In this document: in pieces, positions 14,841-44,201 of the stretch
How the letters are laid out: the number at the start of each line of letters is the position of its first letter
Position numbering within the stretch: the first letter of the stretch is position 1
Origin: Amoebidium appalachense
Taxonomy: Eukaryota; Protista; Ichthyosporea
Assembly (NCBI GenBank): GCA_963693365.1
Contig: CAVNZM010000012.1
Span: forward strand, 1,984,001 to 2,048,000
DNA length: 64,000 bases
Direction: 5' to 3'
Notes under the pieces: generated by a model
Database searches by the model: none
Seen by the model: only the letters and a program-made list of their open reading frames with translations
Told to the model about the DNA's origin: nothing
Translations under genes and position numbers: made by a program

Positions 14841-15300
14841 ACTACATTAAGGGGCGCGGCACCCCACGTTAGTGACGTCACAAAGTGTGACGTCACTAAC
14901 GCAGGGTGGCGCACCCCTTAGGATATGGCAGATATGCATATGGGATATGGCGATATGCAGTATGATATGGGTGTATATTGTGATTAGGATATGGATATGG
15001 GTATGGATATGTACAGGAGCACGTGCACACACTGTGTGTGTGTGCATAAACACGTGCAGAGCACGTGGATTTAATTAAAATATTAAAGGGAAAACGTGTC
15101 ATGTGTGCGCGTGCACGCACGCGCACATGCGACACGTACACGGTTCTGAGATCAAAGGAATGCGACGGTGTGCACAAGGCGGCCAATGAGAATTCGAATT
15201 CCGAATTCCTTGTACAAGGCGGCCAATAGTAATGCGGATGCACAAGGCGGCCAATGATAATTCAGTTCCAAAAAGCCAGTTGCCGCACAAGGCGGCCAAT
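14841..15300 (+). repeat. Left TIR of copy B (460 bp)
   Basis: Reverse complement of 43742-44201, one mismatch noticed. Confidence 0.97.
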
Positions 15301-15340
15301 CGGAGTTCAGGTTGGCACATTTTGGTTTAGGCGGCCAATA
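15175..15340 (+). promoter_or_regulatory. Cluster of (CA)AGGCGGCCAAT CCAAT-box motifs upstream of ORF1
   Basis: Five copies here; mirrored at the right end (about 43655-43870) upstream of pPolB. Confidence 0.6.
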
Positions 15341-15518
15341 AGGACACAGAGATTAAGGATTTCGGTCCTCATTGGCCACAAGCGCACCCAGCATGTCGCC
15401 GCTGTGTACATAAGCATCCGCACACAGGCAACATCACACCAAGCAAACATGAGCCATACGTACACAGTTGAGGTGCACACCACAGTCACGTTCACCACAC
15501 CCCCCAAACAACAGCAAA

Positions 15519-16433
15519 ATGGTCAAGCCAACCCTGCTGCGTCAAACGACTGGTCTGTCCACCGTCAAAAGGACCAGCATCGCCGCGGCAAGCAGTGGCA
15601 AAGAAAACACCAACAACAGTGAGGGGCCCAAGATGGTGCAGTACAAGGAGGTGTTCCTCAACGGTGTGGGCAAGGCCACCATGGGCGCACCCTGGGTGAT
15701 GAACGACGTGTTGGCCGTGCAGCTGTACAACCTGCCCAACATCAACATCAACGGGCAGATGCTCATCGAGTTGGTCCCCAGCACGGTTGCCTGGGATGCC
15801 AAGCCCACCATTAGGGTCAAGTCGCAACGCCGCCCTGAGCCCTTTGAGGTGGCCTACGCCGTTGACCTGTGGCCCTACGTGTGCAGCATGGCCAGGGACG
15901 TGTTGTGGATGCACAAGGACCACGAGATGCTCAAGGGGGTGGACGTGGACACCGTGCCTGTCAAGACCAGCAGCAACCTGTGGTCCAGGCACACCCCCAG
16001 CCTGTACGATGTGCTGGGTGCCGACCCCGTCGGCAAGGAGGACATGGTGGAGGCACTGGGCGGCACCTACTTCAACGTGACGTTGGAGCTCCCCAACCCC
16101 CTTGGCCGCAACCCCTGCCTCTTCAAGCTGGGCAACAACGCTGCCTCCATCGACGAGTTTGTGGAGTTTATGAACTCCCAACGTGCCAAGTGCCGTGAGG
16201 TGACTGCCTGGGTGTCTGCAGCTGCCACCAGCGTCATCTACAACAAGAAGAACAACACTGTGCGTACCAAGCTCGTTGCCCGCAAGGTTCAGGTGTTTGA
16301 CTTAGATGGCCTGATGGAGTTGGTTGGTGGTGAGGGGGGCGAGGGGGAGGGGGGTGAGGTAGACTTGGGGCAGGCTAAGCGTGCAGGCACGCCCATGCCC
16401 GGTAATGACGATGCCAAAATGCTCAGAATGTAA
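15519..16433 (+). CDS. ORF1, 304 aa; possible OB-fold ssDNA-binding protein
   Basis: Intact ORF with strong GC3 bias. Beta-strand-like C-terminal segment EVTAWVSAAATSVIYNKKNNTVRTKLVARKVQV followed by an acidic Gly/Glu tail. Function is inference. Confidence 0.7.
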   Translation: MVKPTLLRQTTGLSTVKRTSIAAASSGKENTNNSEGPKMVQYKEVFLNGVGKATMGAPWVMNDVLAVQLYNLPNININGQMLIELVPSTVAWDAKPTIRVKSQRRPEPFEVAYAVDLWPYVCSMARDVLWMHKDHEMLKGVDVDTVPVKTSSNLWSRHTPSLYDVLGADPVGKEDMVEALGGTYFNVTLELPNPLGRNPCLFKLGNNAASIDEFVEFMNSQRAKCREVTAWVSAAATSVIYNKKNNTVRTKLVARKVQVFDLDGLMELVGGEGGEGEGGEVDLGQAKRAGTPMPGNDDAKMLRM

Positions 16434-16674
16434 TGACACACGACTGTATATTGAGAACATATTTGTCTGCGGGTGATTGCCACGAAATAAACGGTCAAAA
16501 AAACTTGTGTTTTTGGGGAAAAACGAACACTGTGAGCTACGTGACCGACTTGACTTGTGGCGCAATGAGAGGGAGTGTCAAAGACTTGCGCAAGTATGAG
16601 CCGATGAAATTTTGCGAATTTATCTCCAGGAATGCCCAGCATGTCGTTTTTTCTTCTCTTTCCCTTTCTTTCTC

Positions 16675-16757
16675 AAAAAAAAACTTGAAAATCCTTTTCA
16701 ATCATCTCTTTTCGTAGAAAAAAGTCTTTTAAAGTTTTTGTTACCGTAGTAGACAAA

Positions 16758-16806
<49 letters not shown>

Positions 16807-16908
16807 CTCGTTTCCTTTCGTTAGTTTTGTGAAAAAACTTGAAAATCCTTTTCAATCATCTCTTTTCGTAGAAAAAAGTCTTTTAAAGTTTTTTGTTACT
16901 TAGACAAA

Positions 16909-16963
<55 letters not shown>
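16675..16963 (+). repeat. Two tandem ~155-bp AT-rich units each ending in (CA)n
   Basis: AAAAAACTTGAAAATCCTTTTCAATCATCTCTTTTCGTAG occurs twice; the same duplication is in copy A at about 45750-46030. Confidence 0.9.
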
Positions 16964-16966
<3 letters not shown>

Positions 16967-16986
16967 CTTAGGGTCAGAAAGCAATC

Positions 16987-18029
16987 ATGCCTCCTCGTCG
17001 TAGACAACCCACTTCTCGTTTCATGAGAAAGGCAAAAAGCCCAACCAAGTTTGACCAATTTTTGAACCTCTTTTGTGTTGCGTACGTGGCTGTTTTCAAC
17101 GCAGCATACGAGTACATTCAGTACATCACAAAGGGTGATTGGGCCCAGCGCCCACGTTGTCCCAACCTGGTGGAGTGCTATCATAACTGGGCAGAGGCTG
17201 AGGAGACACTTATCGAGGCAAACGTTGCAGAGAAGGACGAGATTCTGGAACGTGAGCGTCTGATTAGTGCCATACAGATTGGCGTTGTGTCATGGTCATT
17301 CTCGCAGAAGGAGGCCCTACCGGGGGTTCTAAACGAGGTTTTTCATACGGACGTGTTTAAGTGGGACTGCAAGGACGGGGTGTGGTCGGTCGGCATCGCT
17401 GTGCCTGTGTATGACACCGGTATGGATGATGGTTATGGCGAGGCCGAGTCGATCTTTAAAGACCGTGACGACACGTTCACTTTCACCCGCAAGTGCTTCG
17501 ATTTCATGCAGGGGGTGGTCAACATACTCGAACGGGCCGGGAAGTTAGATTTGATGCTACACCAACACGTCATCGACACCTACACCGACACCATGGATAT
17601 TTGGGGAGCAGCATGCAAGTACAAAAAGTTTATCAATGGAGAGTGGTTTGCCCCCGTCATACCCATGTACGACTTCTACCCGGCATCCAGACAGGAGAAA
17701 CAGGTGGAATTGGGTAGAGAGACGGTCGAGAAGGTCATGGATGCCCTCGAGCTACTTACCCATGGACACGTTGCCTACCCCCGTGACATTATGGACCTGC
17801 TGAACGAATGCATCGGCATACCTCAGCTGTTTAGTGTGGTTTACGAGAGAGTCAGCAAGAGCACACGGTATGCTAAAAAACGCCCCAAATTCCAGAATTC
17901 TGTGATGAGAAAGACGGAGTATGTGTCGGTGTGGACCCTTATACTGGCAGCCCCACCCGAAAGCCCCAACGCACCCACCGAGCGCCAACCCATCACACTG
18001 CAGAAATTAATGCTTAAAGATGGGGAGTA

Positions 18030-18030
<1 letters not shown>
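16987..18030 (+). CDS. Hypothetical viral protein, 347 aa
   Basis: ATG-initiated ORF intact in both copies; basic N-terminus. Confidence 0.8.
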
Positions 18031-18065
<35 letters not shown>

Positions 18066-18357
18066 CACACATGCACATGCACACTTAAATCGTTGTCTTC
18101 TTAGGCACACACACGTGCAGGCACACGTGTGCAATGCACCGCAGTAGTCTTGGGTTTGTACTCAGCTTGTTTTTCGTAAAAATAAAAGTTTATTTTTGCC
18201 GTCGATTGTCTTTGTAAAAAAGAAAAAACGTGGAAATAAAGGGCTCTGCCCATTGTCTTCACAAAAAAACGTGTCTATGGTCATGGACGAGCTGAGAGGG
18301 TAAAAAACGTATAAAACGTGCAAGTATAGGGCACAGCCCTGCACGGTCACCCCTAAC

Positions 18358-19479
18358 CTAACCACTTAGGTAGATGACGTCGCTGTTCACAGTCTTGAGG
18401 AGGGAAGAAGTACGGGGCTTAGACACCTGGACCCCACCGTAGAAGTAGCGAGCACCGTGGGCCATCTTGTTGTTGTTGTTGTTGTAGGTGATGTTTCTGT
18501 TGCAGCTGCTGCAGATGGTGTAGAGGGGGGCACGGTTCTCCTTGTGATCTGGGGCAAGCTCCGGGACAGACTTGCGCCGTGACGGGGCCTCCTTGGCAAT
18601 GTTTTTCTTGATCAACCCTGCAAAGTGAATCTTTTCACCTAAACCACACGCACGCTCCTCTGCAATAGTGCGCAGCAGGGCCTGCATTTCATGCAGGATA
18701 TCCAGGGGAACCCCTTTGAAGATGGGTGTGGACTTTAACTTGGCAGCCTTGGCAGTGGCCACCATGGCCTGCAGGAATCCTACAAGAACATGGGCCAGGA
18801 GGTGCACAAGCTCGTCCTCACGGTAGGGAGACACAGTCCCTGACTTGCACATAGCGGCAATGGGCTGCCAGCCGTCCTCTACCTGGTGCATGTACCTGTG
18901 GATGTAGTCGCCAACCAGCTGAGGATCTGTCTCGGCCTTGTACCTGATAGACCTGTCGTGCTCGTTGAACAGTGGCAGGAGGAGGTCTACCACAGCAGCC
19001 GCCACCCCCTTGAGCATGAGGGCGTTGCGGCACGCGAGTGTTAGCTTAATCGAATCGGTGTGCAAGTCTGCCAGGTCTGCCAACCCACGTACGTTGTCAC
19101 GCAACAGTGCCTCAGGCAGCCACATCCCAACAAAATCGTTGTGACCAGCGAAGCGTTTCTGGAAGTAGACTTTCCCCCCTGGGTTGTAACCAGCCTGGAA
19201 GAAGCCATCAACCGTGGCGGGATGGAGGTAGGCCGAGTTCTCCACAACACCGGGCTGTGCAGCATACCCCTCAGCCAGCGTGCGGTGGAGCTTGTAGAAG
19301 GGGTCAGGAACAAGGGCGGAAACATCTATGTCGGCCCAGGAGAAGGTGCGTAGATCATTGAAACAAGGATAGCCAAAGGATGTGACCATGGGTGTAGGTA
19401 CAGAAAGGGCGGATGCTGCAGCAGCCTGAGCAACAGCTGTGCCATTGCAAAGAGGGGGTAGGGGAGAGAGAGGGTTCAT
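18358..19479 (-). CDS. Hypothetical viral protein, about 373 aa
   Basis: Long ORF from MNPLSPLPP; homolog in copy A is split by an LTR element. Confidence 0.8.
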   Translation of the reverse strand: MNPLSPLPPLCNGTAVAQAAAASALSVPTPMVTSFGYPCFNDLRTFSWADIDVSALVPDPFYKLHRTLAEGYAAQPGVVENSAYLHPATVDGFFQAGYNPGGKVYFQKRFAGHNDFVGMWLPEALLRDNVRGLADLADLHTDSIKLTLACRNALMLKGVAAAVVDLLLPLFNEHDRSIRYKAETDPQLVGDYIHRYMHQVEDGWQPIAAMCKSGTVSPYREDELVHLLAHVLVGFLQAMVATAKAAKLKSTPIFKGVPLDILHEMQALLRTIAEERACGLGEKIHFAGLIKKNIAKEAPSRRKSVPELAPDHKENRAPLYTICSSCNRNITYNNNNNKMAHGARYFYGGVQVSKPRTSSLLKTVNSDVIYLSG

Positions 19480-19748
19480 GTTTAAAAAGTTCGCTGTTTG
19501 CAAAAAAGGCAGGCTAGAGTGGCTTAGAATAAAGGAAAAATGTTTGAAGAATGGACCGTTTGCAGGTGGTTTTTTGTGCCCTCCGGCACACATGCTGCCA
19601 TTGCTCCAAACTTTGGTGACTCGCGTTGCACTAGGGGCCAATCAAAGCGCAGGAAGGCTACCAATGGAATGAAAGTCAACAAACCTTATTGGTTCCTCGC
19701 ACCGCCCGCCAACGGTGTTTCCTGTGTGCACTTACCATATATGGGTTT

Positions 19749-20363
19749 TCAATTAGCTCTGCGACCCGAGACGTGTGGCGGCCTTGCCGGTGGCCAGACG
19801 TAGGGTTTGCCACCCACAAGCACCTGTGCACCACCCCCTCCGCCCCCTCTCCACTCATAACCACCACCTGTGTGCGGGCGTGTACCCGTGGGCACACTCC
19901 CCCCACCACCACTACTGCCTGCAGCGTTGTATGGACCATAACCCGCAGCATTCTGTGCAGTGTGTAGCATATAGTTACCCGCGTCCCTTGTGCCATTCCT
20001 CAGTGTCTTCCACGCGCTGAACGAGCCATTCTGGATCCCCTGACCCACATGCTGTGTGCCCTGCAGGGCGGCATCGCCTGTGGCACGTGCGGCCCCTTTG
20101 AGCCCCTTGAACGCTGTCCCCCCCACCTCCCCGGCCTTTTCTGCACTGTAGGTGGCTGCATCTGCTGCCTTGTTGTACATGTAGTTACCCACCCCCCTTG
20201 CTATGTCCCCCTTGTGTTTCCACGCATAATACCCCCCTGCCCCCAAGGCAGCACCGCCTGCCAGAGCCCCCACCCACTTAGCCACCTCTGACGCCTTGTT
20301 TGGTTGGTTTTGCACGTAGATGACGCGCGTGTTTCCGTTCCTGCCTCGCGATGACACACCCAT
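19749..20363 (-). CDS. Gly/Ala-rich protein with one hydrophobic segment, 204 aa
   Basis: CACCATG start; WVGALAGGAALGAGGYYAW; intact in both copies. Confidence 0.75.
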   Translation of the reverse strand: MGVSSRGRNGNTRVIYVQNQPNKASEVAKWVGALAGGAALGAGGYYAWKHKGDIARGVGNYMYNKAADAATYSAEKAGEVGGTAFKGLKGAARATGDAALQGTQHVGQGIQNGSFSAWKTLRNGTRDAGNYMLHTAQNAAGYGPYNAAGSSGGGGSVPTGTRPHTGGGYEWRGGGGGGAQVLVGGKPYVWPPARPPHVSGRRAN

Positions 20364-20432
20364 GGTGGTGGTGTGGCTTGCACTTTTACTTATGTGGGCA
20401 TATTATTTTTTATTGCCAGAGTCATGTTCCTG

Positions 20433-20702
20433 CTAGCGCACGACCCTGCCATGTGCACGCCTGAGTGCTGCAAAGGTAGGACGTCTCCGGGTACTAGGAG
20501 CACGGTTGCCTGCTGAGGAGCCAGCCACAGTGGTTGGTTTAAGGAAAGAAGGGTGGCGTGTGTTGCGTGGACATATACTGTCTGCAATGGATCTTGCCAT
20601 GGCCTGCTGGCCATAAAAGCTAAAGTCTGTGCGCGTGGCGTTTGACGTGCGCTCAGTGAGGGGTTGAAATTGGTCATTGAGCACAACTTGGTAGGTGGCC
20701 AT
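20433..20702 (-). CDS. Small basic protein, 89 aa (possible core protein)
   Basis: CACCATG start; Arg-rich C-terminus; conserved in copy A. Confidence 0.6.
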   Translation of the reverse strand: MATYQVVLNDQFQPLTERTSNATRTDFSFYGQQAMARSIADSICPRNTRHPSFLKPTTVAGSSAGNRAPSTRRRPTFAALRRAHGRVVR

Positions 20703-20752
20703 GGTGGTGTGCTGGTACCTTATACACTCTACCACACATTTTTATGATCTGG

Positions 20753-21298
20753 CTAGAATTCCAACCCCAGCACACCCCCTGTCTTTGAGCTGCGCGGGTA
20801 TGTCTCAGGCACCCACGACACTACACGTGGGCCACCCACTGGCTGGGGCTCTGTAAACAGAAGCAGGCACACGCCCTCTGGTGATGGTCTCTTGAACCCC
20901 TCAAACTTGACCCTGCCCCGCAAAATGCGCACCTCTGCAGCGTACCTAAACGCCAGGTCATGAAACCAGCGTGCCTCTGTGCGTGCAGGTACAAGCAGTA
21001 CGCTCTTTCTACCCTTTGACATGTACATCTGTATGGCCTTGCGTATGAAGGGGGAAATATCGGAGAACGGTGGGTTGACATAGTTGATTTTCTCGCTGGA
21101 CCACACACTGTCATCTGTGAGTGCGCAAGGGTCCTCCCCCTCTCGCCAGGTGATGGGGCAGGGGTCATTGAGTGTGCCAAACTCTTTTTCAAGCGCTTCC
21201 AGCAGCCATGCAGGCGTCTGCACCTTGTCTGTGTCCACACCGGTCCTCCTCTTGTCCACCGTCGACTTGTACACTCCGCAGCAACTCCCAAGCCCCAT
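20753..21298 (-). CDS. Phage Dam-type DNA N6-adenine methyltransferase
   Basis: QTPAWL...LNDPCP, YVNPPFS, VLLVPARTEARWFH and RILRGRVKF motifs. Confidence 0.9.
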   Translation of the reverse strand: MGLGSCCGVYKSTVDKRRTGVDTDKVQTPAWLLEALEKEFGTLNDPCPITWREGEDPCALTDDSVWSSEKINYVNPPFSDISPFIRKAIQMYMSKGRKSVLLVPARTEARWFHDLAFRYAAEVRILRGRVKFEGFKRPSPEGVCLLLFTEPQPVGGPRVVSWVPETYPRSSKTGGVLGLEF

Positions 21299-21615
21299 GA
21301 TCACACAGTCCCGCACCTGTGTGCTGTGAAAATTTCGCGGGCCACGGACCGGGCCGGATCCTGCCGGGTCCGGGTCGGAGCGGGCCGTAAATGGGTCGGG
21401 TGGTCCGCAAAGGGCAGATTCGGGTCAGGACCAGTGGTCCGCACATGGAGGATTAGCCTGATTTGGCAGGTGACCAAATAGGGCTAGTTTTGATGGTTGC
21501 GGGTTGGTGGGGCGTCGCCTGTTTGTGCAAACATTCCATTAAACCAATTTAAAACATAATTGCGGTCGCTCATTGGTGGGGAGTCTCTGTTTTTTTCAAG
21601 ACATGGGAGGCTGCC

Positions 21616-22935
21616 CTAACGGCGTGCGTGCCTTTCACTGCGACGCAGACCCACTTGCTCCGGTTGATGTTCAAACGCGAGTTTTTTCCGTTCCCGTGCC
21701 TTGCGTTCTTCTTTTTCCTTTTGGATTTGTCCACGTGTGCCCTTTCGGGGCACCAGCTCACGGCCTTCAAACGCCAGCTCTTCCACGGCTTTTTCCTTGG
21801 CTGTCTCCTTACGGGCTTTACGCATCTCGCTGCTGTGCGGTACGGGCACACTGGTAGGTGGTACCTTCTTCAGCATGGTGTCTGGCCAAGCGTAGCGTAG
21901 GCCTGGCGTGTGTCTCCTCATCTCCCCTGTGGCTGCGTTGCGTAGGGCCCACCCACTTGCATCCTTGTAGGCAAGCGTGTAGACGTCCTTAGACCAGTTT
22001 CTGCCTTCTTTTTCAAACGGTCCCTTTGGTTTCTTGAGTGCACGTACGTGCACACCCGCTGTGTGGCCCATCCTTTCACGTAGCTTACGCTTCTGTTTCC
22101 TGTTCTCCAGCCACGTGTTGATGCTGTTCCACCGTTCTGCCCGCTGGGTCATGCTGTCGGGGTCTCTGCCTATGGAACCATGGTACGTATCGTTGTAATC
22201 CTCCAGCACGTCTTCCAACCCTTCCCCTATCCACTTGCCCGTGTTGTTGGTCTCCATGTACTTGGTCAGTCCTTGCTTTAGAGTACGGTGGAACCGTTCC
22301 ACCATGGCTACATTGCGTGGTTTTCTGCCTGGTTTTTGCGGGAGAATGGTGATGTCATTGTCGCCGTAGTACTTTTTCATGGTGTTGCTAAGAAACTCCG
22401 TGCCCTTGTCCGTAAAGATTTGCTTCACCTCTGTAGGTTGTAGGTTTTCCTCCCCCTCGTTGCTTTCGTCCTTCATCTCCTTGATTGTGTGTAGGGCCTT
22501 ATCCACTGCCCTCCTCATCTCTGGCCCGTTGCTGATGGTGAGGTGCTCACTCTTCCCGGTCCCCGAGCTCTTTGTTTTTATGGGTACGACTGTTGCTTGC
22601 CGCGTGTTCATGTCAATCACACTCAATCCCCCCTTGTACCCCCTGTTTGCCTTTGAGTAACGTGGCATGAAAAACAGGTCGGCTGCCACACTGTTTGGCC
22701 GTGCTGTTGTGGTGAGGTAGTCCTTCCTCTTAATCCTATGGGGGGCCATCACCTCCGTGAGGGACTCCTGCAGCCCCGAGTGTCTCCTGGACAGGTAGGC
22801 ACGCACGGCCGGTTGCCCCACCCTCTTGTCTTTTGCTTTTGCACGATGCCATAGGGCTTGTACGGAGGGGGGGAGCTTGAAGGTGTCGTAGGTTTCATCA
22901 ATCACCTGCTCAATGTCCTTCCCGTGGGCCACCAT
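21616..22935 (-). CDS. Retroviral-like (RVE) DDE integrase, 439 aa
   Basis: AADLFFM (D), FTDKGTEF (D), VERFHRTLK (E), YNDTYHGSIG. No C-terminal chromodomain seen. Confidence 0.93.
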   Translation of the reverse strand: MVAHGKDIEQVIDETYDTFKLPPSVQALWHRAKAKDKRVGQPAVRAYLSRRHSGLQESLTEVMAPHRIKRKDYLTTTARPNSVAADLFFMPRYSKANRGYKGGLSVIDMNTRQATVVPIKTKSSGTGKSEHLTISNGPEMRRAVDKALHTIKEMKDESNEGEENLQPTEVKQIFTDKGTEFLSNTMKKYYGDNDITILPQKPGRKPRNVAMVERFHRTLKQGLTKYMETNNTGKWIGEGLEDVLEDYNDTYHGSIGRDPDSMTQRAERWNSINTWLENRKQKRKLRERMGHTAGVHVRALKKPKGPFEKEGRNWSKDVYTLAYKDASGWALRNAATGEMRRHTPGLRYAWPDTMLKKVPPTSVPVPHSSEMRKARKETAKEKAVEELAFEGRELVPRKGTRGQIQKEKEERKARERKKLAFEHQPEQVGLRRSERHARR

Positions 22936-22956
22936 GGTTGTTTCTTGTGCTTCCTA

Positions 22957-23547
22957 CTAGTCGGTCGACACTTTCTCCTTTGGGATCCTTCTTGGTCTGC
23001 GTGCAGCTGTGGTCTTTTTGGCTGTCTTTTTGGCCTTGGGGGCAGGGGGTGGTTGTAGCTTGATGGGGTGGTCGGGCATGAGTGGCCGGGGGTGCAATGG
23101 TGTGATGTCCTGCTCCGTGTCTGTGCTTGCGGGTACATCCTCATCGTCGTCGAGTAGTGTGAGCACGGAGGGTTGTTGCTCTTGGAGTGGTGGGGGAGAG
23201 GCGGGAGGGGTGGGGAAGGCAAAGAGGGGCTCATAAAGGGGTGTTGGGGAGAGGGCGTCGTGGGGAAAAGGGGTGTCTGGTCGGGGAAAGTGGGGGGGAA
23301 GAGAGGGGAAGGGGGAGGGGGTGGGGTACTCTTGCAGTAGCACGTCCCTTATGGTGCTTGCATGCTCTTTCAACCACTCTGTGAAGGATTTCCACTCTAG
23401 CCCCTGCTCTGTGCACACTAGCATGTCCCCTTCCTTGGGTCGGTATCTAGGAAAGACAAGGGTATAGGATTCGGTCGATGAGTGGGCTTGCACACCCACG
23501 TACTCTCCCGATCGCGTGAGCAGATTGAGTCTGTGTACGTTAGACAT
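22957..23547 (-). CDS. Pro-rich protein with fiber-like N-terminal module, 196 aa
   Basis: YVGVQAHSSTESYTLVFP motif shared with the 25817-26359 and 26378-27859 proteins. Confidence 0.7.
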   Translation of the reverse strand: MSNVHRLNLLTRSGEYVGVQAHSSTESYTLVFPRYRPKEGDMLVCTEQGLEWKSFTEWLKEHASTIRDVLLQEYPTPSPFPSLPPHFPRPDTPFPHDALSPTPLYEPLFAFPTPPASPPPLQEQQPSVLTLLDDDEDVPASTDTEQDITPLHPRPLMPDHPIKLQPPPAPKAKKTAKKTTAARRPRRIPKEKVSTD

Positions 23548-23593
23548 GGTGGTTGTTTGCCTTTATTGTAGTTGCACATTTTTTCGCACCGTG

Positions 23594-24352: not shown

Positions 24353-24354
24353 TT

Positions 24355-25716: not shown

Positions 25717-25816
25717 GGGGTAGTGGTGGGTCTGGAACGTGATGGTCTGTCTCTCCTCGTCCCAGCTCCCAAAGAAGAGGGGGTGCCCATGCTGTGTGGG
25801 GTGTCTGGGTTGCTTA

Positions 25817-31341: not shown

Positions 31342-31353
31342 CACACCGGCAAC

Positions 31354-33102: not shown

Positions 33103-33150
33103 AGTGCTAAATTGTGTCTGGCTATATAAAAACAAGCACACACGGCAAAC

Positions 33151-33525
33151 ATGGCTACCGACACTGCTATTGTACCGTGGGCACCTACACCAACCCAGGC
33201 AGCCGTGTACGGCTACAAGGTGGCTCCACAGGCCGAGTACGAGGCAGCCTATGTTGCCCCCTACCGTGTACCTCACACGGACGGCACCTTCCAGGCCGGG
33301 GTGTACGGTGTGCCGTTCCGTGAGCTGCCGACTTTCGGCAACCTGCCCGCCGACAACCACCTACCCTCCATGCCGGGCAGGAGTGGTCTGGGTAGCAGGG
33401 GTCTCCCGTTCAACAACCAGACCTACTACCTGGACTTTGCACCCGTGAGGGTGGGCCGTAGTGGTGACCCCCAGAACAGCTTTACCAGGCAACCCATGGC
33501 ACAGTATGCCGGGTTCTCCAAATAA
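33151..33525 (+). CDS. Hypothetical protein, 124 aa
   Basis: TATATAAA about 25 bp upstream; ATG start; GC3 bias. Confidence 0.7.
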   Translation: MATDTAIVPWAPTPTQAAVYGYKVAPQAEYEAAYVAPYRVPHTDGTFQAGVYGVPFRELPTFGNLPADNHLPSMPGRSGLGSRGLPFNNQTYYLDFAPVRVGRSGDPQNSFTRQPMAQYAGFSK

Positions 33526-33558
33526 TAAACACCAGTTTACAACAATACCGTGTCCACC

Positions 33559-35977: not shown

Positions 35978-36270
35978 CACCACCACCACCAATATGGCAC
36001 CCGGCACGGAGCACATGCGCATGTATGCGTTGCCACACACCCTTGCCCCCCTCCCCGTACCCCCTCCCCTACCGCACCCGACCGACCCCCGGGCCTGTAC
36101 CCCAAACCCGACCGTTCTACGGGCCGGGAAACACCGTCATTGAGGGCCCAGGGGGGACCATGAGGCCGAGGCCGGCCACGTACACACCTTGGCCTGTGGC
36201 TGCCGACAAGAGCTCCTTCCAGAACTATTAAATATTGTGTGTGGTTGTGTAAACACCCTACTTCTGCAAC

Positions 36271-36462
36271 ATGGAGCTCAACATTGGCGGGCCCCCCATA
36301 CGTAAGAAGCCGTTCATTTTTCCGGAGCAGAACAACAGCTTAAACGTCATGGACGTCTCGACCATACGTGACTTCCGGGAACGCCCGTTGGCCTACACCG
36401 TACCGTTGTCCGGCATCAACGCCAACCGTCCCATACGCACGGCACCTGTGGTGTTTAAATAA
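36271..36462 (+). CDS. Small hypothetical protein, 63 aa
   Basis: CAACATG start; ends at AAATAAA. Confidence 0.5.
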   Translation: MELNIGGPPIRKKPFIFPEQNNSLNVMDVSTIRDFRERPLAYTVPLSGINANRPIRTAPVVFK

Positions 36463-36579
36463 ACTTGAGTGGGTCGACGGTAGTGTGGGCACGTGCTGGC
36501 ACACCCCCTACCACCACCTGCTACCCCTAACATATTGTGCACATGTCTTGTATTTAGGTCACGGTACAGTAGCACCAGG

Positions 36580-37467
36580 CTACAGGTAAAACATGTTGTA
36601 TTCCACAAGCATGTGGTAGTTTTTAAGGTCCCTCTCCAGCTGCACCCACACCTTGTCACTCTTGACTCTAGTCACCTTGCTTTTGACGGCCGGCACCAGC
36701 CTAGCCACCACCTCAGCATCCATACCACCCACTAATTCCACCATTTTCACCAGCAGGAACGGGTACCCCACAAAGTTCTTCCTTGTGTCCTCCTTGTGCC
36801 TCCTATGCCACGACAAGGAGAACTTAAACATGCCCATCAACAGCTCGAGCTGTTCACACGTGAACCTAGGGAGGGGGTGACCGTACAGCCTGTTTAATAT
36901 ATAAGGTACACGCATGTAGTGTTTTGTAAGCTTGTTCTGTCTCAACACCCTCCTTGCCTGGTCTGCATTCTCTATGTGTGCCACACCCCTGAATGCTGCC
37001 ACCACCCCCTCCTGCATGTCCCCCATGGAAGCATTCAACCCCTGCACCGACTGAAGTAGCTGCTTGAAGTGGTTGATGTGTCTGTATGGCTGTGACCTCT
37101 TCCTGTCCCAGAAGGCCGTGCACCCCTCATAGGTCTTCCTCCCCTCACCGTCACTCCCCTCCCACCCCCTCCCGTCGTACACCCAGTCCTCCTCCCCCTC
37201 TCCCTCCCCCTCCTCCCCCCCTTTCCCTCCCCCCTCCTCGTACACGTACTCCTGGACTCCTCCGTCGTGCCCGTAGTCGTCGTGTCCCCCCGTGGACGTC
37301 TCCCTGTTGCAGTATGCCCACCAACATGCATTCGGTGGTTGTAGTGGGGGTGGGGGTGGGGGTGTGGTCGGGCTACAGTACATGTCGAAGAGGAAGGGGC
37401 ATAAGTCTAGCAGCTTCTCGGGGTCTGTGGTGTCTGCCACCATACTTAGCAGTGTGTCTTCATCCAT
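36580..37467 (-). CDS. Poxvirus VLTF3 (A2)-like late transcription factor
   Basis: YRHINHFKQLLQSVQG, RKNFVGYPFLLVKMVELVG and KS-x5-KSDKVWVQLERDL match NCLDV VLTF3 C-terminal motifs. Confidence 0.82.
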   Translation of the reverse strand: MDEDTLLSMVADTTDPEKLLDLCPFLFDMYCSPTTPPPPPPLQPPNACWWAYCNRETSTGGHDDYGHDGGVQEYVYEEGGGKGGEEGEGEGEEDWVYDGRGWEGSDGEGRKTYEGCTAFWDRKRSQPYRHINHFKQLLQSVQGLNASMGDMQEGVVAAFRGVAHIENADQARRVLRQNKLTKHYMRVPYILNRLYGHPLPRFTCEQLELLMGMFKFSLSWHRRHKEDTRKNFVGYPFLLVKMVELVGGMDAEVVARLVPAVKSKVTRVKSDKVWVQLERDLKNYHMLVEYNMFYL

Positions 37468-37972
37468 TTTTAATTTTGATTTTTTCGTGTGTTGCCTGTT
37501 TTCGTGTTGGAAAAAGTGAGGTATCTTTGCACATGTGTGTGCCTTTTATATGTGCTGGTGCCTGCTCTTTTTGGCAAGTCTCCCCCCCTTGTATGCATGT
37601 ATGGTGCTGTTGTTGGTGTTCATGCTTCTGCCCAAGGCCACATTGGAAGGGTTTGTGTTTGCATTAAACTCTGATTTTATTTGCTGCTTCCCCTCATGCA
37701 TACGGTGCACGTGGTGTATGCCCAAAAACACCGTCTTTTTCTTTAAGTTTTTCTTCTGACCCCCTTTCCCATGCACACTGCACCCCATTTTTCCTTTTTT
37801 CTGAAGCTAAGTTAACAGACACCCCATATAATTTTCATGTCTACCCTAACGTATTCCCTGCATACTTTGATACTTTGATTTAACTTTGATTTAAAAATTG
37901 CATACTTTAACTTAAAATGCTAACTAACCCTTCCCCTTCCCTCCCCCTCCCTCCCCCTCCCCCTCCCCCCAC

Positions 37973-40900
37973 TCAAAACTGCAGAGTCCCCTCCGGTGCT
38001 GCCCACCCAATGGGGTAGCTGCGTACACTGCCGTCGGCTGCCTCAAACACCCCCCTCTTGTCGAAGGCCCCCGACTGTGTCTTCCTCTGGTCCTTGCTGG
38101 CCAGGTGGTAGTTGTGGGGCACCCCGGGCACGGGCTCGCGCAGCAGCCGGTGGTTGGTGACACTCACACTCGGCATCTCCCCGTGCACCAGCATACGGAG
38201 GCTGGGGAGGTTCACCATGTCGGCTGCACGACGGGAGAGGGTGATGCCCTTGACCTTGACGTCGGTCTTGCCGTCCTGGGTGCGGTAGGCATAGGTCTTG
38301 GGGGCCACTCCAACAAACTCGACGATGGGGGCGGTGGTCTCGTTCTTCCAGTTGCCCAGCAAGTCCCCGTTGGTGGAGTCGATGTTGTGGCTGAGGTGGG
38401 GCACCCTGCTGTCGTAGTGGTAGACGATGGAGTCCGTGTCCATGTACACCACCTGCTGGGGGGAGAGGGACCGGAGGGCACCATAGAGGTGCAGCCGTGC
38501 ATGGGCCGTCACGAACGTGCCGATGGCGATGTTCGCGTAGGAGGGGGGTGGGGCCGTCTCCTTCTTGGGCCTGTACTTGATGGCCACCCTCTGCTCGCCG
38601 ATGGGCTCGACGTCCAGCACCAAGATGTTGGGGTTGGTCACCAGCAGACTCAGCCGATCGACATCGTCGACAAACTCGATGGTGTCGAGCCCTGCCCTCT
38701 GCACCAGCTTGCCCCAGAGGCTGTTCAAAAACAGCTTGCTGATGGTACGAAGGGCAGGGTTGGGGCTGAACTCGTCGGCCGTCACCGTGATGCCGTAGTG
38801 CTCCTTGAACAGGTGCACGAGGGCGGGTATGTCGGCAGGATCCACGGTGGTGCTGGTGAGCTTCACCTTCAGGAAGGTCTGCACGTACTTCCGAAACAGG
38901 TTCTTGGTGCGTTTCTTGAAATGCACCACATCGTACACATCGAGGATGGTGTACCCATCACGCACGGCCACCTTCAGCTCCTCCGTCGTCCACGTGCCGA
39001 CCAGTGCCCTCTCCTCGTCCGTGTGTGTGCATTGCACATGCTCACGCACCCGGGGGTTGCCCTCCTCGTCCATGCAGGTGGCCAGGGCCTCCTCCTTGCT
39101 GCTGCAGGCCCTGCACAGCACAAAGCCCAGCTTGTCGTACCCCTGGGCACCCGTCATACGCACAGGCAGCACGGGGATGAAGAGATCCTTGGGGGGGAGC
39201 ACCCTCACACGTGCAACACCAAAGTACCCCTTGGTCCTGGCCTTGGGGGAGCCGGGGGTCATACGGCACGTCTTGTCGAGCCTCTCCTTGAGCACCTGGG
39301 GGTCCGTGACGATGACCGAGGGGTGGTCCTCCGGCTTGATGGGCAGTGACGTGAACCACTGTGACTTGCCCACCGGCATGTACTTGTCAATCATCACGTA
39401 CGGGTAGAGGGACGTGACGTCGACGTACTTGAGCCCTGCCTGTGGCCAGTCCTCCTCCTTGACCTCGATGTGACGAGTGATGACCTCCGTACGGCCACCA
39501 AAGAAGGCATCACGGAACTGCACCGGGCCCGTGGGCACGGGGGCCACCCTGCCGGTGCCCTCCCTCCGTGCTGCCTGTGCTGCAAGTGCTGCCTTCACCT
39601 CCGGGCTCTGCCGAAGCCTGTCCCACCTGCACTCCCACATGCTCTGCACCTTGTGCCCCTGGGCACGGATGTACCTCTCGTGGCCCATGGTGCTGTCGTA
39701 GGCCTCCTTGGCCGACCTCTTCACCACCCTCATCGTCAGATCCTCGTGCATATTGCATTCGGGGCACCCGTGGAACACACACCCGTGGAAGAAGTAGTAG
39801 GTGCACGTGCCGTCGTCGTGGGTGGCCTTGGCATCGGCCGTGGCCCGCCCGTGGGGGCCGTACCCGGTGGCCTCGTGCCGTGCAATGTCGTCGGGCCCCA
39901 CCCCCAGCCCGTGGGTGACGTAGTCGATGTACTCCTGCTCCTTCTTGCTGCTGTTGACGTTGCCCATGGTCTGGTCTCGAAGCACAGCCACGTCCTTGGG
40001 CATGGCCTGTGAGATCCAGAAGTGCATGGCCAGTGCTGCAAGGGTCACACACGTGAAGGGGTCGATGCCCGTCAGCTCAATGAGTTTGGACATGAAGGCC
40101 TTGACCACCTGCTGCAGCAGCACCACGTCCTTGACACAGTAGTCCTCACACTGCTGCACAATGTCGTAGCACGTGGCTGCCGGGGCCCCCTCAAGCAGAC
40201 GTGCCTGCTCCTCGTGCCACCACTGCATGAAGGCAGCATGCTGTCTGGGCTTCATGTCCTGGGCACCAAAGTCCTCGGGCCCGGGGAAGGGAATGGTGCC
40301 GGCCTTGAAGTTGGCAAAGGTGGCTGCATGGTGGGGGAAGTGGCCCTTGGTCTCCTCACACCCCATGGCCTTGCCCGCATCTGACAGGGACATGGTGAGG
40401 AAGTTGAGGGTGTCCACGAACGTCAGCTCCACCACCGTGGTACGGCTACCGCCCCCCCTCTCCCCCCCGTGCCGTCTCTTGTGGCCGGTGCCTGCTGCTG
40501 CTGCTGCTGCTGCTGCTGCCTGCTGCTGCACATCACCATGGCCATCACCATCCACCGGCATGGGTGTGGGCTCGGGGTCTGCTGCACCGGCACCCTTGAG
40601 GTAGTGACGTATACGGCAGGACTTGATCTTGCTGTTGGTCATGATGGGCACGTACACATAGTCCTGGCTGCCCACCACCCTCTTGGTCACAAAGTGGAAG
40701 TCGAAGCCACTGCCGTTGTGGCAAAACACCCGGCCACCGGCGTGGGCAGGGGTGTCAAACAGCCACTTGACCACCTTGTCAATCACGTGGTGGTTGTCGT
40801 CCATCAACACGTCCCAGGCGTCCTTGCCGTCGGCCGAGGGCTCCGGCCAGAAGATGATGGGGCCAGTCGGTTGGCCATCTGACGGCTCGACGTACATGGC

Positions 40901-43531
40901 CACAGCAAGGTACACAATGTGGATGAAGTGGGGGTTGTCGGGTGTGTGGTCGGGGGCTGGCACCGGCATGGTCTCAAAGTCCAGCACAATGTCCCTGATG
41001 GGCTGCCTGGTCTGCTTCCACACACCCCCGGGTCCGCTGCCGTCATTGTCGGGCACGTGCCGTTTGCACACGTGTGCACCCACCCTGCTGCCGGCAGCAT
41101 CCACCCTGACCCTCTGCCGTGCAGGTGACTCTCCCCCCTCCTCCCCCTCCCCCTGCTCGTTGGAGAAGCATGCCACCCTGTCACACACCGCACCGTCTGC
41201 ATCCGTGTGTGTGCACATATACACACGCCGTTGGCCACTGAGCTTGCTACGTATGAGGCACGTGTGGTTGCCGGGCATATAGCCCCCACAGCCCTTGCAG
41301 GCGTAGTCGGTGCACAGGTGTTGTGTCCACGTGTCGTCCTTCTTGGCCCCGTGCTCACCCCCCTCACCCCCCTCCCCCTCCCCCTCAGACATCTGCATGA
41401 GGTCGACGGCATCATCCTCGTCATCACTCTCACTCTCGTCGTCTGACGACTCGACAAGGCAGGGTGGGGGGTCTGTGCCTGTGTCGGAGTCCTCCCCCTC
41501 CGTGTCCGTGGCATAGTCCCAGTCCTCCCCCTCGTCGTTGGGGCCTGCATCTGCCCCTGCATCGTACCCCCCTTGCTCCTGGGCAGTGTGCAGCCGGCGT
41601 AGACGGCGCACGCTGGCGTACTTGAACTTGTAGAAGAACCGGCCGGCAGGATTGCCCGACACACACACCCTGAGGGCATCATCTCCACTGCCAATCATCC
41701 TGTACCCCTGCAGGCCGTGGGTGCACGTGGCCAGCCGGCACCAGAACACGGTGTCACAGAAGGATTGTTGCCGGCCGTCGGCCCTGGCCCCGGCCCCCTT
41801 GAGCTTGGTGCTGTGGTTGGCCATGCACCTGGCCGAAGGGAAGAGGCCACAGCAGTCGTCACAACGGTAAGGCCATGCATCCTCCCCCACCCGTGCTAGC
41901 TCCACACGGCGCCCGGGGGTCCACACACAGGCATCTGCCTGGTCGATGTGGTTCCCCTTTGATCCACAGTTCCCACACCGGTTCACACAACGGTGCACCC
42001 CCATGTTCTTGGATTGCACGGTCTGGTTGCAGTGGAAGCAGGTGCTGAGGCTCCGACGTACGGCCCCCGTGTGGTTGCCGTTGCGCAGGCGCTCGATGGT
42101 GTTGCTGACATTGGAGGGGATGGCCATGAAGTGGCCCAGCTTCTGGGAGTGGCCAAGGTACATGGTGCACAGCTTGCCGGGGGGAAGGGCCGAGCTCACG
42201 TCCCCGTACCTTCTTGCCACCCTACCCTTGCTGTCCAGGTCCACCACCACCAGCCGTAGACGGGTGACTGACTGGGTCTCACTGGCAATCTGCATGTTGA
42301 GGGCATCCACGGCTGCACCCAACTGATCCACCGTCAGCCCGTCCTCTGCAGGCACAGGCAGCTTGTACTTGGCCCACAGCCGGCGGGTGGCCCTTGCCAG
42401 CCTGCGCAGGTAGCGGTCCTGGAAGTTGCTCCTTGGGTTGATGGGTGGCTGCAGCAGGTTGCACACCCCACAGCCGGAAGACACAGACCTACCCAGAGCC
42501 TTGTTGCCAATACCAATCACATCCATAGGGTCCAGTAGTTGGCACAGCACGTGGTGGTCCTTGAGCTTCATGAGGTCACCCCCATTGCCCAGGTTCTTAC
42601 GAGTGTGCTCGGAGGGCAGGCTGCCGTTCTCGTTGCTGTTGGCTGCCTTGCTGACCCACATTGCCATACAGTACACCAGGCACAGCTGGGCACAGGAGGG
42701 GCCGTCGGCAATCTCAAGCAGCTGATGGTGGTCAAGCTCCTTCTCCCCTGTCACCTGCGGGTCGTTGCTGCTGCAGGCTGCCTTCACCAGGGTGGTCACA
42801 TCCACCACGGCCTTGGCCTCCACCAGCTCCCGCAGCCACTGGGCTGTCACCCCTGTGAGGGTGGACAGGGACCCGCAGGCACCCTTCCTCACCATGTCCT
42901 TGGGCCGGACCACGGTCAGATGCACACTGGATCGCCCGTCCATAAAGGTCTCGGCTGCACTCTGGGTGCGTTGGCGTATGTTCTCCATCAGCTTGAGCAC
43001 CACGGCATTCACATCACCGTTGAACACGTCCATGGGGCCTGCCGTAAACACACGACGGTTGGTGACATCGGCGTTGGGGTTGCCGTCATCCCCCACCTGG
43101 TTGTCCACACCATTGGCCTGCACGTGCAAGCTGATGATGCGTACGATGATCATGTCCCCCACCTGCACATCTGCACGGGCGATGGCATCAAACAGCATAG
43201 CTGCAAAGAACTGGGGGAACTCGGTGACGTCCATGGTGCGCAGGGGTTGGTACTCGAGGGTGTGGCCGCGTACGCCCAACCCCCTTGCCTGCATGTCATC
43301 CACCCGTGAACGCAGCTGCCAGTTGCCCTCGGCAGGCATGGCAATGATCTGGGGGTCATCTGGGTGGTTGATGGGGGCGGGGGCAGGGGGGAGGCCGGGG
43401 GGGGGTGGGGGTGGGGGTGGTGGGCCCTGCAGGGCCTGCAGAAACGGGTTGGCTTGCAGGGCCTGCTGCGGGTCGGCATCCAGTGCCCGCAGCAGGTCCT
43501 CTATGAAACCTTCCTGGCTGTCGTCTAACAT
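37973..43531 (-). CDS. Protein-primed family B DNA polymerase, 1852 aa
   Basis: Exonuclease LDFET, HNGSGFD, YCVKDV; polymerase FFGGRTE, DVTSLYP, KLFLNSLWGK, YMDTDS, KTYAY; Vsr-like insert FHGCVFHGC...MWECRW; long Cys-rich N-terminus. Confidence 0.97.
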   Translation of the reverse strand: MLDDSQEGFIEDLLRALDADPQQALQANPFLQALQGPPPPPPPPPGLPPAPAPINHPDDPQIIAMPAEGNWQLRSRVDDMQARGLGVRGHTLEYQPLRTMDVTEFPQFFAAMLFDAIARADVQVGDMIIVRIISLHVQANGVDNQVGDDGNPNADVTNRRVFTAGPMDVFNGDVNAVVLKLMENIRQRTQSAAETFMDGRSSVHLTVVRPKDMVRKGACGSLSTLTGVTAQWLRELVEAKAVVDVTTLVKAACSSNDPQVTGEKELDHHQLLEIADGPSCAQLCLVYCMAMWVSKAANSNENGSLPSEHTRKNLGNGGDLMKLKDHHVLCQLLDPMDVIGIGNKALGRSVSSGCGVCNLLQPPINPRSNFQDRYLRRLARATRRLWAKYKLPVPAEDGLTVDQLGAAVDALNMQIASETQSVTRLRLVVVDLDSKGRVARRYGDVSSALPPGKLCTMYLGHSQKLGHFMAIPSNVSNTIERLRNGNHTGAVRRSLSTCFHCNQTVQSKNMGVHRCVNRCGNCGSKGNHIDQADACVWTPGRRVELARVGEDAWPYRCDDCCGLFPSARCMANHSTKLKGAGARADGRQQSFCDTVFWCRLATCTHGLQGYRMIGSGDDALRVCVSGNPAGRFFYKFKYASVRRLRRLHTAQEQGGYDAGADAGPNDEGEDWDYATDTEGEDSDTGTDPPPCLVESSDDESESDDEDDAVDLMQMSEGEGEGGEGGEHGAKKDDTWTQHLCTDYACKGCGGYMPGNHTCLIRSKLSGQRRVYMCTHTDADGAVCDRVACFSNEQGEGEEGGESPARQRVRVDAAGSRVGAHVCKRHVPDNDGSGPGGVWKQTRQPIRDIVLDFETMPVPAPDHTPDNPHFIHIVYLAVAMYVEPSDGQPTGPIIFWPEPSADGKDAWDVLMDDNHHVIDKVVKWLFDTPAHAGGRVFCHNGSGFDFHFVTKRVVGSQDYVYVPIMTNSKIKSCRIRHYLKGAGAADPEPTPMPVDGDGHGDVQQQAAAAAAAAAGTGHKRRHGGERGGGSRTTVVELTFVDTLNFLTMSLSDAGKAMGCEETKGHFPHHAATFANFKAGTIPFPGPEDFGAQDMKPRQHAAFMQWWHEEQARLLEGAPAATCYDIVQQCEDYCVKDVVLLQQVVKAFMSKLIELTGIDPFTCVTLAALAMHFWISQAMPKDVAVLRDQTMGNVNSSKKEQEYIDYVTHGLGVGPDDIARHEATGYGPHGRATADAKATHDDGTCTYYFFHGCVFHGCPECNMHEDLTMRVVKRSAKEAYDSTMGHERYIRAQGHKVQSMWECRWDRLRQSPEVKAALAAQAARREGTGRVAPVPTGPVQFRDAFFGGRTEVITRHIEVKEEDWPQAGLKYVDVTSLYPYVMIDKYMPVGKSQWFTSLPIKPEDHPSVIVTDPQVLKERLDKTCRMTPGSPKARTKGYFGVARVRVLPPKDLFIPVLPVRMTGAQGYDKLGFVLCRACSSKEEALATCMDEEGNPRVREHVQCTHTDEERALVGTWTTEELKVAVRDGYTILDVYDVVHFKKRTKNLFRKYVQTFLKVKLTSTTVDPADIPALVHLFKEHYGITVTADEFSPNPALRTISKLFLNSLWGKLVQRAGLDTIEFVDDVDRLSLLVTNPNILVLDVEPIGEQRVAIKYRPKKETAPPPSYANIAIGTFVTAHARLHLYGALRSLSPQQVVYMDTDSIVYHYDSRVPHLSHNIDSTNGDLLGNWKNETTAPIVEFVGVAPKTYAYRTQDGKTDVKVKGITLSRRAADMVNLPSLRMLVHGEMPSVSVTNHRLLREPVPGVPHNYHLASKDQRKTQSGAFDKRGVFEAADGSVRSYPIGWAAPEGTLQF

Positions 43532-43741
43532 CCTGAACAGTAATCTTAGATCTTAGCCACAATGTAATTGCCAGGCAGCGCCGGCAGCAAAAACATCAAT
43601 AAACAGAACGCAAAATAATGATCCTGTGCGTGCGTAAGTGCGCCACCATTGTTTACACAAGGCGGCCAATAGGAAACCCAGGTTGACCGATCCGGGCGCT
43701 CATTGGCCGCCTTGGAAATGGAATGTGCTATCTTAATGTTC

Positions 43742-44201
43742 ATTGGCCGCCTTGTGCGGCAACTGGCTTTTTGGAACCGAATTATCATTGGCCGCCTTGT
43801 GCATCCGCATTACTATTGGCCGCCTTGTACAAGGAATTCGGAATTCGAATTCTCATTGGCCGCCTTGTGCACACCGTCGCATTCCTTTGATCTCAGAACC
43901 GTGTACGTGTCGCATGTGCGCGTGCGTGCACGCGCACACATGACACGTTTTCCCTTTAATATTTTAATTAAATCCACGTGCTCTGCACGTGTTTATGCAC
44001 ACACACACAGTGTGTGCACGTGCTCCTGTACATATCCATACCCATATCCATATCCTAATCACAATATACACCCATATCATACTGCATATCGCCATATCCC
44101 ATATGCATATCTGCCATATCCTAAGGGGTGCGCCACCCTGCGTTAGTGACGTCACACTTTGTGACGTCACTAACGTGGGGTGCCGCGCCCCTTAATGTAG
44201 T
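43742..44201 (-). repeat. Right TIR of copy B (460 bp)
   Basis: Reverse complement of 14841-15300. Confidence 0.97.

What the first reader, a model, noticed from the sequence alone, without database searches (positions are those of the whole stretch)
14841..44201. Complete, near-intact 29.4-kb Polinton-like virus with a non-canonical gene set
Seen: pPolB, RVE integrase, ATPase, MCP and penton are all open, with near-perfect 460-bp TIRs. Departures from canonical Polintons (15-25 kb, 6-bp TSD, adenain-like protease, chromodomain integrase): larger size, 5-bp TSD with ACTAC termini, no recognisable stand-alone protease, no integrase chromodomain, a 582-aa PLV-like MCP, plus VLTF3, Dam methylase, a 7-TM protein and several fibers. 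Inference: possibly an undescribed lineage that can still form virions.
Basis: partly seen in the sequence, partly recalled or inferred. Interest (0 to 1): 0.8.

Follow-up and report, generated by a model that had tools for sequence, protein, structure and literature searches.

The report
Protist polinton-like provirus, spliced capsid transcript
This is a complete, very recently inserted 29-kb DNA virus in the genome of what is likely the protist Amoebidium, matching a virus family already described there; what appears new is a swapped tail-fibre tip and a likely spliced RNA running into its capsid genes.

Summary
The element is real. It spans 14841-44201, with 460-bp perfect inverted ends and a 5-bp target duplication. 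Its polymerase, integrase, ATPase, Dam and VLTF3 genes are open, and its capsid folds as a double jelly-roll.

It is probably not an undescribed lineage. Gene set and size match the Amoebidium 'adintoviruses' of Sarre et al. 2024, and the closest named capsid relative is from the ichthyosporean Sphaeroforma. The label 'adintovirus' fits poorly: it pairs a Polinton-type polymerase with a PLV-type capsid and shows no detectable adenain. The penton was not confirmed here.

Three things were not found in my paper searches:
(1) It is nested inside an LTR element inside a 99.4%-identical sister copy, so it moved recently.
(2) The two copies carry different fibre heads (43% identity against 97% in the rest of the fibre).
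(3) Contigs from three runs that look like RNA show GT-AG splicing (seven introns in all) and a poly(A) end, and they cover the capsid block. This is more likely cryptic splicing of a derepressed provirus than an adenovirus-like late unit (2-kb leader, 41 ATGs).

The parts
14841..15300 (+). Left TIR, starts ACTAC; two TGACGTCA palindromes and inward GCGGCCAAT repeats (recalled as CRE-like and CCAAT-box-like host promoter sites)
43742..44201 (-). Right TIR
14836..14840 (+). Target-site duplication ATATG (second copy 44202-44206)
   Evidence: empty-site contigs
15519..16433 (+). 304-aa ORF, no family hit (SSB-like ending is recalled only)
16987..18030 (+). 347-aa ORF, unknown
18358..19593 (-). 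ORF of up to 411 aa, unknown
19749..20363 (-). 204-aa Gly-rich ORF, unknown
20753..21298 (-). Dam-type adenine methyltransferase
   Evidence: PF05869 E 1e-15; phrog_111
21616..22935 (-). RVE/DDE integrase, no chromodomain hit
22957..23547 (-). 196-aa Pro-rich ORF; fibre-like N-terminus by eye only
   Evidence: BLAST not significant
23546..24352 (+). 268-aa multi-pass membrane protein, no retinal-binding lysine
24355..26359 (-). 453-aa and 180-aa ORFs; probably one fibre-like gene split in this copy or assembly at homopolymer runs
26378..27859 (-). 493-aa fibre with repeat shaft; head (about 26390-27090) is the block that differs between the two copies
27940..28998 (+). Probable penton (352 aa from the well-contexted ATG); not confirmed
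30598..31341 (+). A32-like packaging ATPase
   Evidence: PF04665 E 3.9e-9
31354..33102 (+). Major capsid protein, double jelly-roll, PLV-type family
33559..35977 (+). 151-aa ORF, 90-bp repeats and 447-aa ORF with Lys-rich tail; probably one gene split here at a homopolymer run
36580..37467 (-). VLTF3 late transcription factor
   Evidence: PF04947 E 8.4e-12
37973..43531 (-). Protein-primed PolB with Exo and Pol motifs and a vOTU-like His
21824..36530 (+). Span of an inferred spliced, polyadenylated RNA of the family (last exon base / next exon base: 21853/22111, 22182/22678, 22794/23766, 23983/24446, 24602/25348, 25490/26114, 26360/26860; poly(A) after 36530)
7535..45138 (+). Ty3/gypsy LTR retrotransposon whose pol gene the virus interrupts
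6307..64000 (+). Outer sister copy of the virus, in three pieces (6307-7534, 45139-47526, 51230 to beyond 64000), broken by two LTR elements

Best explanation
This is a complete, recently inserted polinton-like provirus that likely belongs to the Amoebidium 'adintovirus' family already described, pairing a Polinton-type protein-primed polymerase and integrase with a PLV-type double-jelly-roll capsid. SHOWN: integration with a 5-bp duplication, perfect ends, open core genes, recent movement, and exchange of the fibre head between copies. INFERRED: the integrase joins the linear genome to host DNA; pPolB copies it from the ends; host RNA polymerase II reads it in the nucleus, with early genes driven from CCAAT/CRE-like boxes in the ends; its own VLTF3 would switch on late, one-gene-at-a-time promoters (candidate motif AAAAAT[TG]); the ATPase would fill capsids that need no maturation protease; fibre-head exchange would retune receptor use. 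The host likely keeps it silent by methylation (from the paper). The spliced RNA across 21.8-36.5 kb is most likely a by-product: a long read-through transcript of derepressed copies, cut at strong cryptic splice sites.
For: Anatomy. Match to the published family in genes and size. Closest named MCP relative is Sphaeroforma arctica SARC_11267 (E 3e-53). pPolB is 30-33% identical to its best hits, which include animal sequences, while the MCP family sits among unnamed Preplasmiviricota clusters; such polymerase/capsid mosaics are common. Recent movement: 87 of 15,540 differences between the copies outside the fibre head; host LTR pair differs at 4 of 618 sites. Nuclear Pol II exposure: 7 canonical introns. 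By-product reading: 2,064 nt and 41 ATGs before the penton start against a 188-203-nt adenovirus leader; no joint from the leader to the ATPase or MCP is listed; AAAAAT[TG] lies 30-42 nt before 6 of 21 starts against 1.8% of random windows.
Against: Identity with the published elements was not tested by sequence, and the host is inferred. The penton is unconfirmed. The promoter motif was chosen after seeing the data, intergenic DNA is AT-rich, and the motif also occurs on the opposite strand in 3 of 21 windows. Against 'by-product': splicing is confined to the leader region, 13 equally scored donor-like sites in 27.0-36.5 kb have no listed joint, and coding strands show no purge of donors (56 observed, 52.7 +/- 6.4 expected). 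The motif resembles the mimiviral AAAATTGA used by a helper-dependent PLV, which favours the helper rival. No particles were seen after demethylation.
Confidence: 0.62

Rival explanations
1. The spliced RNA is a true late transcription unit, like the adenovirus major late unit: one internal promoter near 21.8 kb, non-coding leader exons lying antisense to the integrase and fibre genes, feeding the capsid block.
For: Seven introns: all 7 donors score 7 of 9 (2.9% of 519 GT sites do) and all 7 acceptors are CAG (26% of 226 AG sites are). Cover starts inside the element near 21.8 kb and is near zero over 18.7-21.3 kb in X8 and X14; it runs through penton, ATPase and MCP to a poly(A) end. The last acceptor is kept in both diverged fibre heads. 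No splicing is listed inside the capsid block.
Against: The leader is 2 kb with 41 ATGs. Only one acceptor into the block is seen, so the mRNA would be polycistronic. Genes have their own AT-rich upstream motifs. The evidence is contigs, from one study, with library type not on record, pooled over sibling copies.
Confidence: 0.2
2. The provirus is a helper-dependent (virophage-like) parasite whose late genes need a co-infecting giant virus; integrated copies act as an inducible defence.
For: The candidate promoter resembles AAAATTGA, shared by Gezel/PgVV and its helper. The published host carries many giant-virus insertions, and the authors link VLTF3 to giant viruses. Demethylation alone gave no particles. 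Not exclusive of the main anatomy.
Against: It carries its own polymerase and VLTF3; the ends hold host-type promoter boxes (names recalled); its RNA is spliced, which points to the nucleus. No helper was tested.
Confidence: 0.3
3. The family now spreads only as a self-synthesising transposon inside the genome; its capsid genes are intact merely because the copies are young.
For: Insertion next to and inside a sister copy, 0.56% divergence; no particles reported; no related locus in IMG/VR or JGI metagenome scans (low sensitivity).
Against: A fibre head at 43% identity within a 99.4%-identical backbone implies recombination with a diverged relative at a host-attachment gene; a 54-56% relative keeps full-length MCP and penton-like genes.
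Confidence: 0.15

Closest known systems
Amoebidium 'adintoviruses' (Sarre et al. 2024, PMC11244446)
   Same: VLTF3, Dam, minor and major capsid, PolB, terminal repeats, 29-30 kb.
   Different: The passages and legends read give no TSD, termini, fibre variation or splicing. They report no reactivation of capsid genes, whereas RNA-like contigs here cover the MCP and penton region (run conditions unknown).
Adintoviridae / Polintoviricetes (Starrett et al. 2021, PMC8502044)
   Same: pPolB of PF03175 type with a vOTU-like His, RVE integrase, A32 ATPase, TIRs.
   Different: No adenain detected, no integrase chromodomain, MCP not PF21738-type, 5-bp TSD, likely protist host; that paper finds adintovirus virion proteins restricted to animals.
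Polinton-like viruses in the broad sense (e.g. Gezel/PgVV, TsV-N1, cryptophyte PLVs)
   Same: Size, TIRs, 5-6-bp TSD, DJR capsid, ATPase, fibres, methyltransferase, no core protease.
   Different: VLTF3 is uncommon (about 30% of some Zephyrvirus clusters); the MCP matches no named profile available here; PgVV genes are monocistronic with no spanning transcripts.
Adenovirus major late transcription unit
   Same: Long spliced non-coding leader upstream of the capsid genes.
   Different: Leader about 2 kb with 41 ATGs against 188-203 nt; no alternative acceptors or multiple poly(A) sites seen.

Membership tests
Amoebidium 'adintovirus' family (Sarre 2024) | VLTF3 + Dam + MCP + PolB in about 29-30 kb with terminal repeats | tested here: met
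Amoebidium 'adintovirus' family (Sarre 2024) | Sequence identity with the published insertions; host identity | not testable with these tools
   No genome held; nearest named MCP is from an ichthyosporean
Adintoviridae / Polintoviricetes | Protein-primed PolB (PF03175) | tested here: met
Adintoviridae / Polintoviricetes | RVE integrase | tested here: met
   (weak Pfam score, below cut-off)
Adintoviridae / Polintoviricetes | Integrase chromodomain | tested here: not met
   No Chromo hit at E<=0.1
Adintoviridae / Polintoviricetes | Adenain/Ulp1 maturation protease | tested here: inconclusive
   0 of 23 ORFs hit a protease family; strict six-frame motif scan 0 hits, loose scan 2 implausible hits; unknown ORFs were not folded
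Adintoviridae / Polintoviricetes | Polinton-type MCP (PF21738) | tested here: not met
   No hit for the query or for 40 of 40 homologues scanned out of 150 listed; for homologue P0004 the PF21738 cluster ranks below unnamed viral clusters (TM 0.58 against 0.69)
Adintoviridae / Polintoviricetes | 6-bp TSD typical of rve-INT | tested here: not met
   5 bp
Polinton-like viruses (broad) | Double-jelly-roll MCP | tested here: met
   pLDDT 77.5; Z 27.5, rmsd 3.1 over 359 residues to a PBCV-1 capsid chain
Polinton-like viruses (broad) | A32-like ATPase | tested here: met
Polinton-like viruses (broad) | Single-jelly-roll penton | tested here: inconclusive
Polinton-like viruses (broad) | Placement in a named PLV group by MCP HMM or ATPase tree | not testable with these tools
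   The preprint's HMM set is not available; hits are unnamed
Mriyaviricetes / NCLDV-like PLVs | VLTF3 | tested here: met
Mriyaviricetes / NCLDV-like PLVs | NCLDV-like MCP, HUH endonuclease, Mriya48 | tested here: inconclusive
   No Capsid_NCLDV or HUH hit; best fold matches are NCLDV capsids at about 10% identity, a generic result
Virophaviricetes | Virophage-type MCP and cysteine protease | tested here: inconclusive
   No Pfam hit; Sputnik and mavirus capsids rank below NCLDV capsids (Z 19.7 and 18.6)

The most novel reading that the evidence does not exclude
An unclassified ichthyosporean PLV lineage expresses its capsid block through an adenovirus-like, multi-exon spliced late transcription unit and diversifies its fibre head by cassette exchange, which would put spliced late transcription in a protist relative of the adenovirus ancestor and make a culturable host available to test it.
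Probability: 0.2. Interest if true: 0.78.

Novelty: already known. Interest (0 to 1): 0.42.

Why it matters
The family is published but seems misfiled: it is a Polinton-polymerase / PLV-capsid mosaic, not an adintovirus by the capsid and protease criteria. It is very young, nested and varies at its fibre head, so it is a good candidate for catching an integrated polinton-like virus in its viral phase in a culturable relative of animals. The RNA-like contigs over the capsid genes sit awkwardly with the published statement that capsid genes are not reactivated. They make a concrete question testable with existing kinds of data: how are polinton/PLV late genes transcribed, and does adenovirus-style late splicing have a precursor in this group?

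Tried and rejected
6-bp TSD (ATATGA) with asymmetric ends: rejected by three independent left flanks and the symmetric right end.
Joints as DNA deletions: rejected; canonical sites, absent from X2 and X7.
Spliced exons as a hidden coding gene: rejected; longest open stretch on + is 90 codons over six internal exons.
Splice-donor purging of coding strands: a raw strand asymmetry vanished against synonymous shuffles.
Membrane ORF as a rhodopsin: no lysine in the last helix. As a shadow frame: GC3 0.73, and no longer opposite frame.
Penton fold: pLDDT 28.6, not searched.
Related loci: none in viral contigs, metagenome contigs or phages; these scans need short exact words.
PDB sequence searches gave nothing significant.
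No RNA holder was listed by record.
Earlier findings: none.
Low cover of pPolB, VLTF3 and 18.7-21.3 kb in X8, X11 and X14 is not proof of silence.
The protein atlas answered only for a homologue.
Full report
1. OBSERVATION. The ends are 460-nt inverted repeats at 14841-15300 and 43742-44201, 100% complementary. The flanks read ATATG|ACTAC and GTAGT|ATATG. A 6-bp reading is formally possible with asymmetric ends. However, the sister copy at 6307 and one X8 contig have different flanks that stop at the same base, and contigs of the empty site join the two flanks through a single copy of the 5-mer. The TSD is therefore 5 bp.

Of 23 element ORFs scanned, five have viral family hits: Dam, integrase (weak), A32 ATPase, VLTF3 and pPolB. 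None hits a protease or chromodomain family. A strict adenain-type motif scan of six frames found nothing (pattern recalled). The pPolB has Exo and Pol motifs. It also has a His aligned in 13 of 13 homologues at the place expected for the vOTU domain; the Cys motif is by eye only (concept from passages of 10.1101/2024.03.18.585575).

The 582-aa ORF, folded with 119 of the 150 listed homologues, gives a double jelly-roll (pLDDT 77.5; Z 27.5, rmsd 3.1, 359 aligned to a PBCV-1 chain). The penton could not be confirmed: one homologue at 56%, model pLDDT 28.6. Contigs from several runs differ from this copy by single-base indels in homopolymer runs. Stop positions per frame suggest that the 180+453-aa and the 151+447-aa ORF pairs are single genes in siblings, or that the assembly errs there.

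2. SETTING. The virus interrupts the pol gene of a Ty3/gypsy element (7535-45138; TSD GGCAC; LTRs differ at 4 of 618 sites). That element sits inside a second copy of the virus, which is broken again by another LTR element at 47527-51229. Outside the fibre head the two copies differ at 87 of 15,540 aligned sites. The inner insertion is thus very young. In one sharply bounded block (about 26390-27090) the copies diverge: the fibre proteins are identical at 242 of 249 N-terminal and 95 of 220 C-terminal aligned residues. The heads are homologous. I infer recombination with a diverged relative at the likely receptor-binding domain; this rests on two copies only.

3. IDENTITY. The MCP has one close relative (54%) and 410 relatives at E<=0.001. 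Of the 20 looked up, one names an organism: Sphaeroforma arctica, an ichthyosporean. None of 40 scanned matches a capsid Pfam family. For that homologue the atlas lists unnamed, mostly Preplasmiviricota clusters ahead of the Polinton DJR family. The polymerase is 30-33% identical to its best hits, including frog and lizard sequences.

Sarre et al. 2024 (PMC11244446; passages, section 9 in full, supplementary legends, no figures) describe Amoebidium elements with VLTF3, Dam, minor and major capsid and PolB, complete at about 30 kb, 44 in the reference genome, one shown at 29 kb, named adintoviruses from PolB alone. A preprint (passages) reports adintovirus-related Dam genes in the same host; its test of such enzymes in E. 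coli was negative. I put identity with that family at about 0.85-0.9; it was not tested by sequence. Starrett et al. (passages) found adintoviruses through adenain and restrict their virion proteins to animals. The name therefore fits the polymerase but not the capsid module. Size, 5-6-bp TSDs and fibres are ordinary for PLVs (PMC12220804 passages). A core protease is limited to one major PLV group and VLTF3 occurs in some others (10.64898/2026.06.19.733378, parts 1-3 of 5; its HMM supplement could not be seen and bears on placement). Polymerase/capsid mosaics are frequent (passages).

4. A SPLICED RNA. Twenty of 24 listed runs hold the stretch; none is on record as RNA. I laid contigs of five runs. 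X2 and X7 cover the element throughout. X8, X11 and X14 (one study) behave as RNA. Of 15 joints shown (2 more hidden), 7 are GT..AG on the + strand and occur only in X8 or X14. The last is also in X11 and not in X7 (X11 was laid only on 26200-44400). One X14 contig carries three exons in a row. All 7 donors score 7 of 9 against 2.9% of 519 GT sites, and all 7 acceptors are CAG against 26% of 226 AG sites. One X11 contig ends in 23 untemplated A after 36530. Cover begins near 21.8 kb and is present in every bin across the penton, ATPase, MCP and 447-aa ORF, with no GT..AG joint listed there.

Limits: contigs only, library type unknown, one study, sibling copies pooled (the spliced X11 piece differs from this copy at 4 of 169 nt), and contigs cannot show one transcript.

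For a regulated late unit: splicing is confined to the leader; 13 equally scored donor-like sites downstream have no listed joint; the last acceptor is kept in both fibre heads. Against: 2,064 nt and 41 ATGs precede the penton start, against a 188-203-nt adenovirus leader (PMC5429599 passages); only one acceptor enters the block; and a post hoc motif AAAAAT[TG] lies 30-42 nt before 6 of 21 starts, which suits per-gene promoters as in Gezel/PgVV (passages). A test for purging of donors from coding strands was negative, so I cannot explain why splicing stops at the block. I favour a cryptic by-product and give the late-unit reading 0.2. Searches (listings), and passages, found no report of such splicing in polintons or PLVs; one search found no second description of this family. 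The library lacks most subscription journals.

5. MECHANISM. Shown: integration with a 5-bp duplication, perfect ends, open replication and capsid genes, recent movement, fibre-head difference, host-type splicing of family RNA. Inferred: protein-primed replication; nuclear Pol II transcription from GCGGCCAAT and TGACGTCA boxes (five inward GCGGCCAAT at each end, none in the non-viral parts examined; factor names recalled); VLTF3-dependent late promoters; protease-free assembly. Rivals are helper dependence (0.3, not exclusive) and transposon-only spread (0.15). The paper saw no particles and no capsid reactivation after demethylation. The cover seen here may reflect multi-mapping, other conditions or untranslatable RNA.

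6. VERDICT. Real and well preserved, but most probably an already described family under a poorly fitting name. The fibre-head exchange and the spliced RNA are leads that were not found in the searches named above. Interest 0.42.

Noticed in passing
window 7535-45138 and 47527-51229: Two related LTR elements (TGTAAAC...GTTTACA ends, 5-bp TSDs GGCAC and GGCCA, LTRs over 99% identical within each pair) both landed inside the outer virus copy. The gypsy pol continues after the inner virus into a chromodomain-like ORF at 44204-44464 (name recalled).
   Followed up: partly
window 5447-6316: A LINE-like reverse transcriptase ORF runs into the left end of the outer copy. Its flank (ATATGG) resembles the inner target (ATATG), a possible target preference.
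   Followed up: no
window 59160-59282: The outer copy has about 120 extra bases between the two fibre genes, with a degenerate echo of a fibre N-terminus and an AAAAATT motif.
   Followed up: no
window 34027-34634 and 35700-35977: 90-bp tandem repeats encoding Pro-rich units, and a tail with 41 Lys/Arg in the last 90 residues; possibly a DNA-condensing or core protein. Contig depth is highest here, next to the poly(A) end.
   Followed up: partly
window 33156-33191: Contigs of X7, X8 and X14 carry a short tandem duplication in the 124-aa ORF that this copy and an X11 contig lack.
   Followed up: no
window 31428, 33606, 38573, 42246 (loose ends): Contigs that match briefly and then diverge, in two or three of the RNA-like runs, suggest a diverged clade of the family is also present in them.
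   Followed up: no
window 15519-16433: The 304-aa ORF ends in a beta-rich motif and an acidic/Gly tail, recalled as typical of viral single-stranded DNA-binding proteins; no search supported it.
   Followed up: partly
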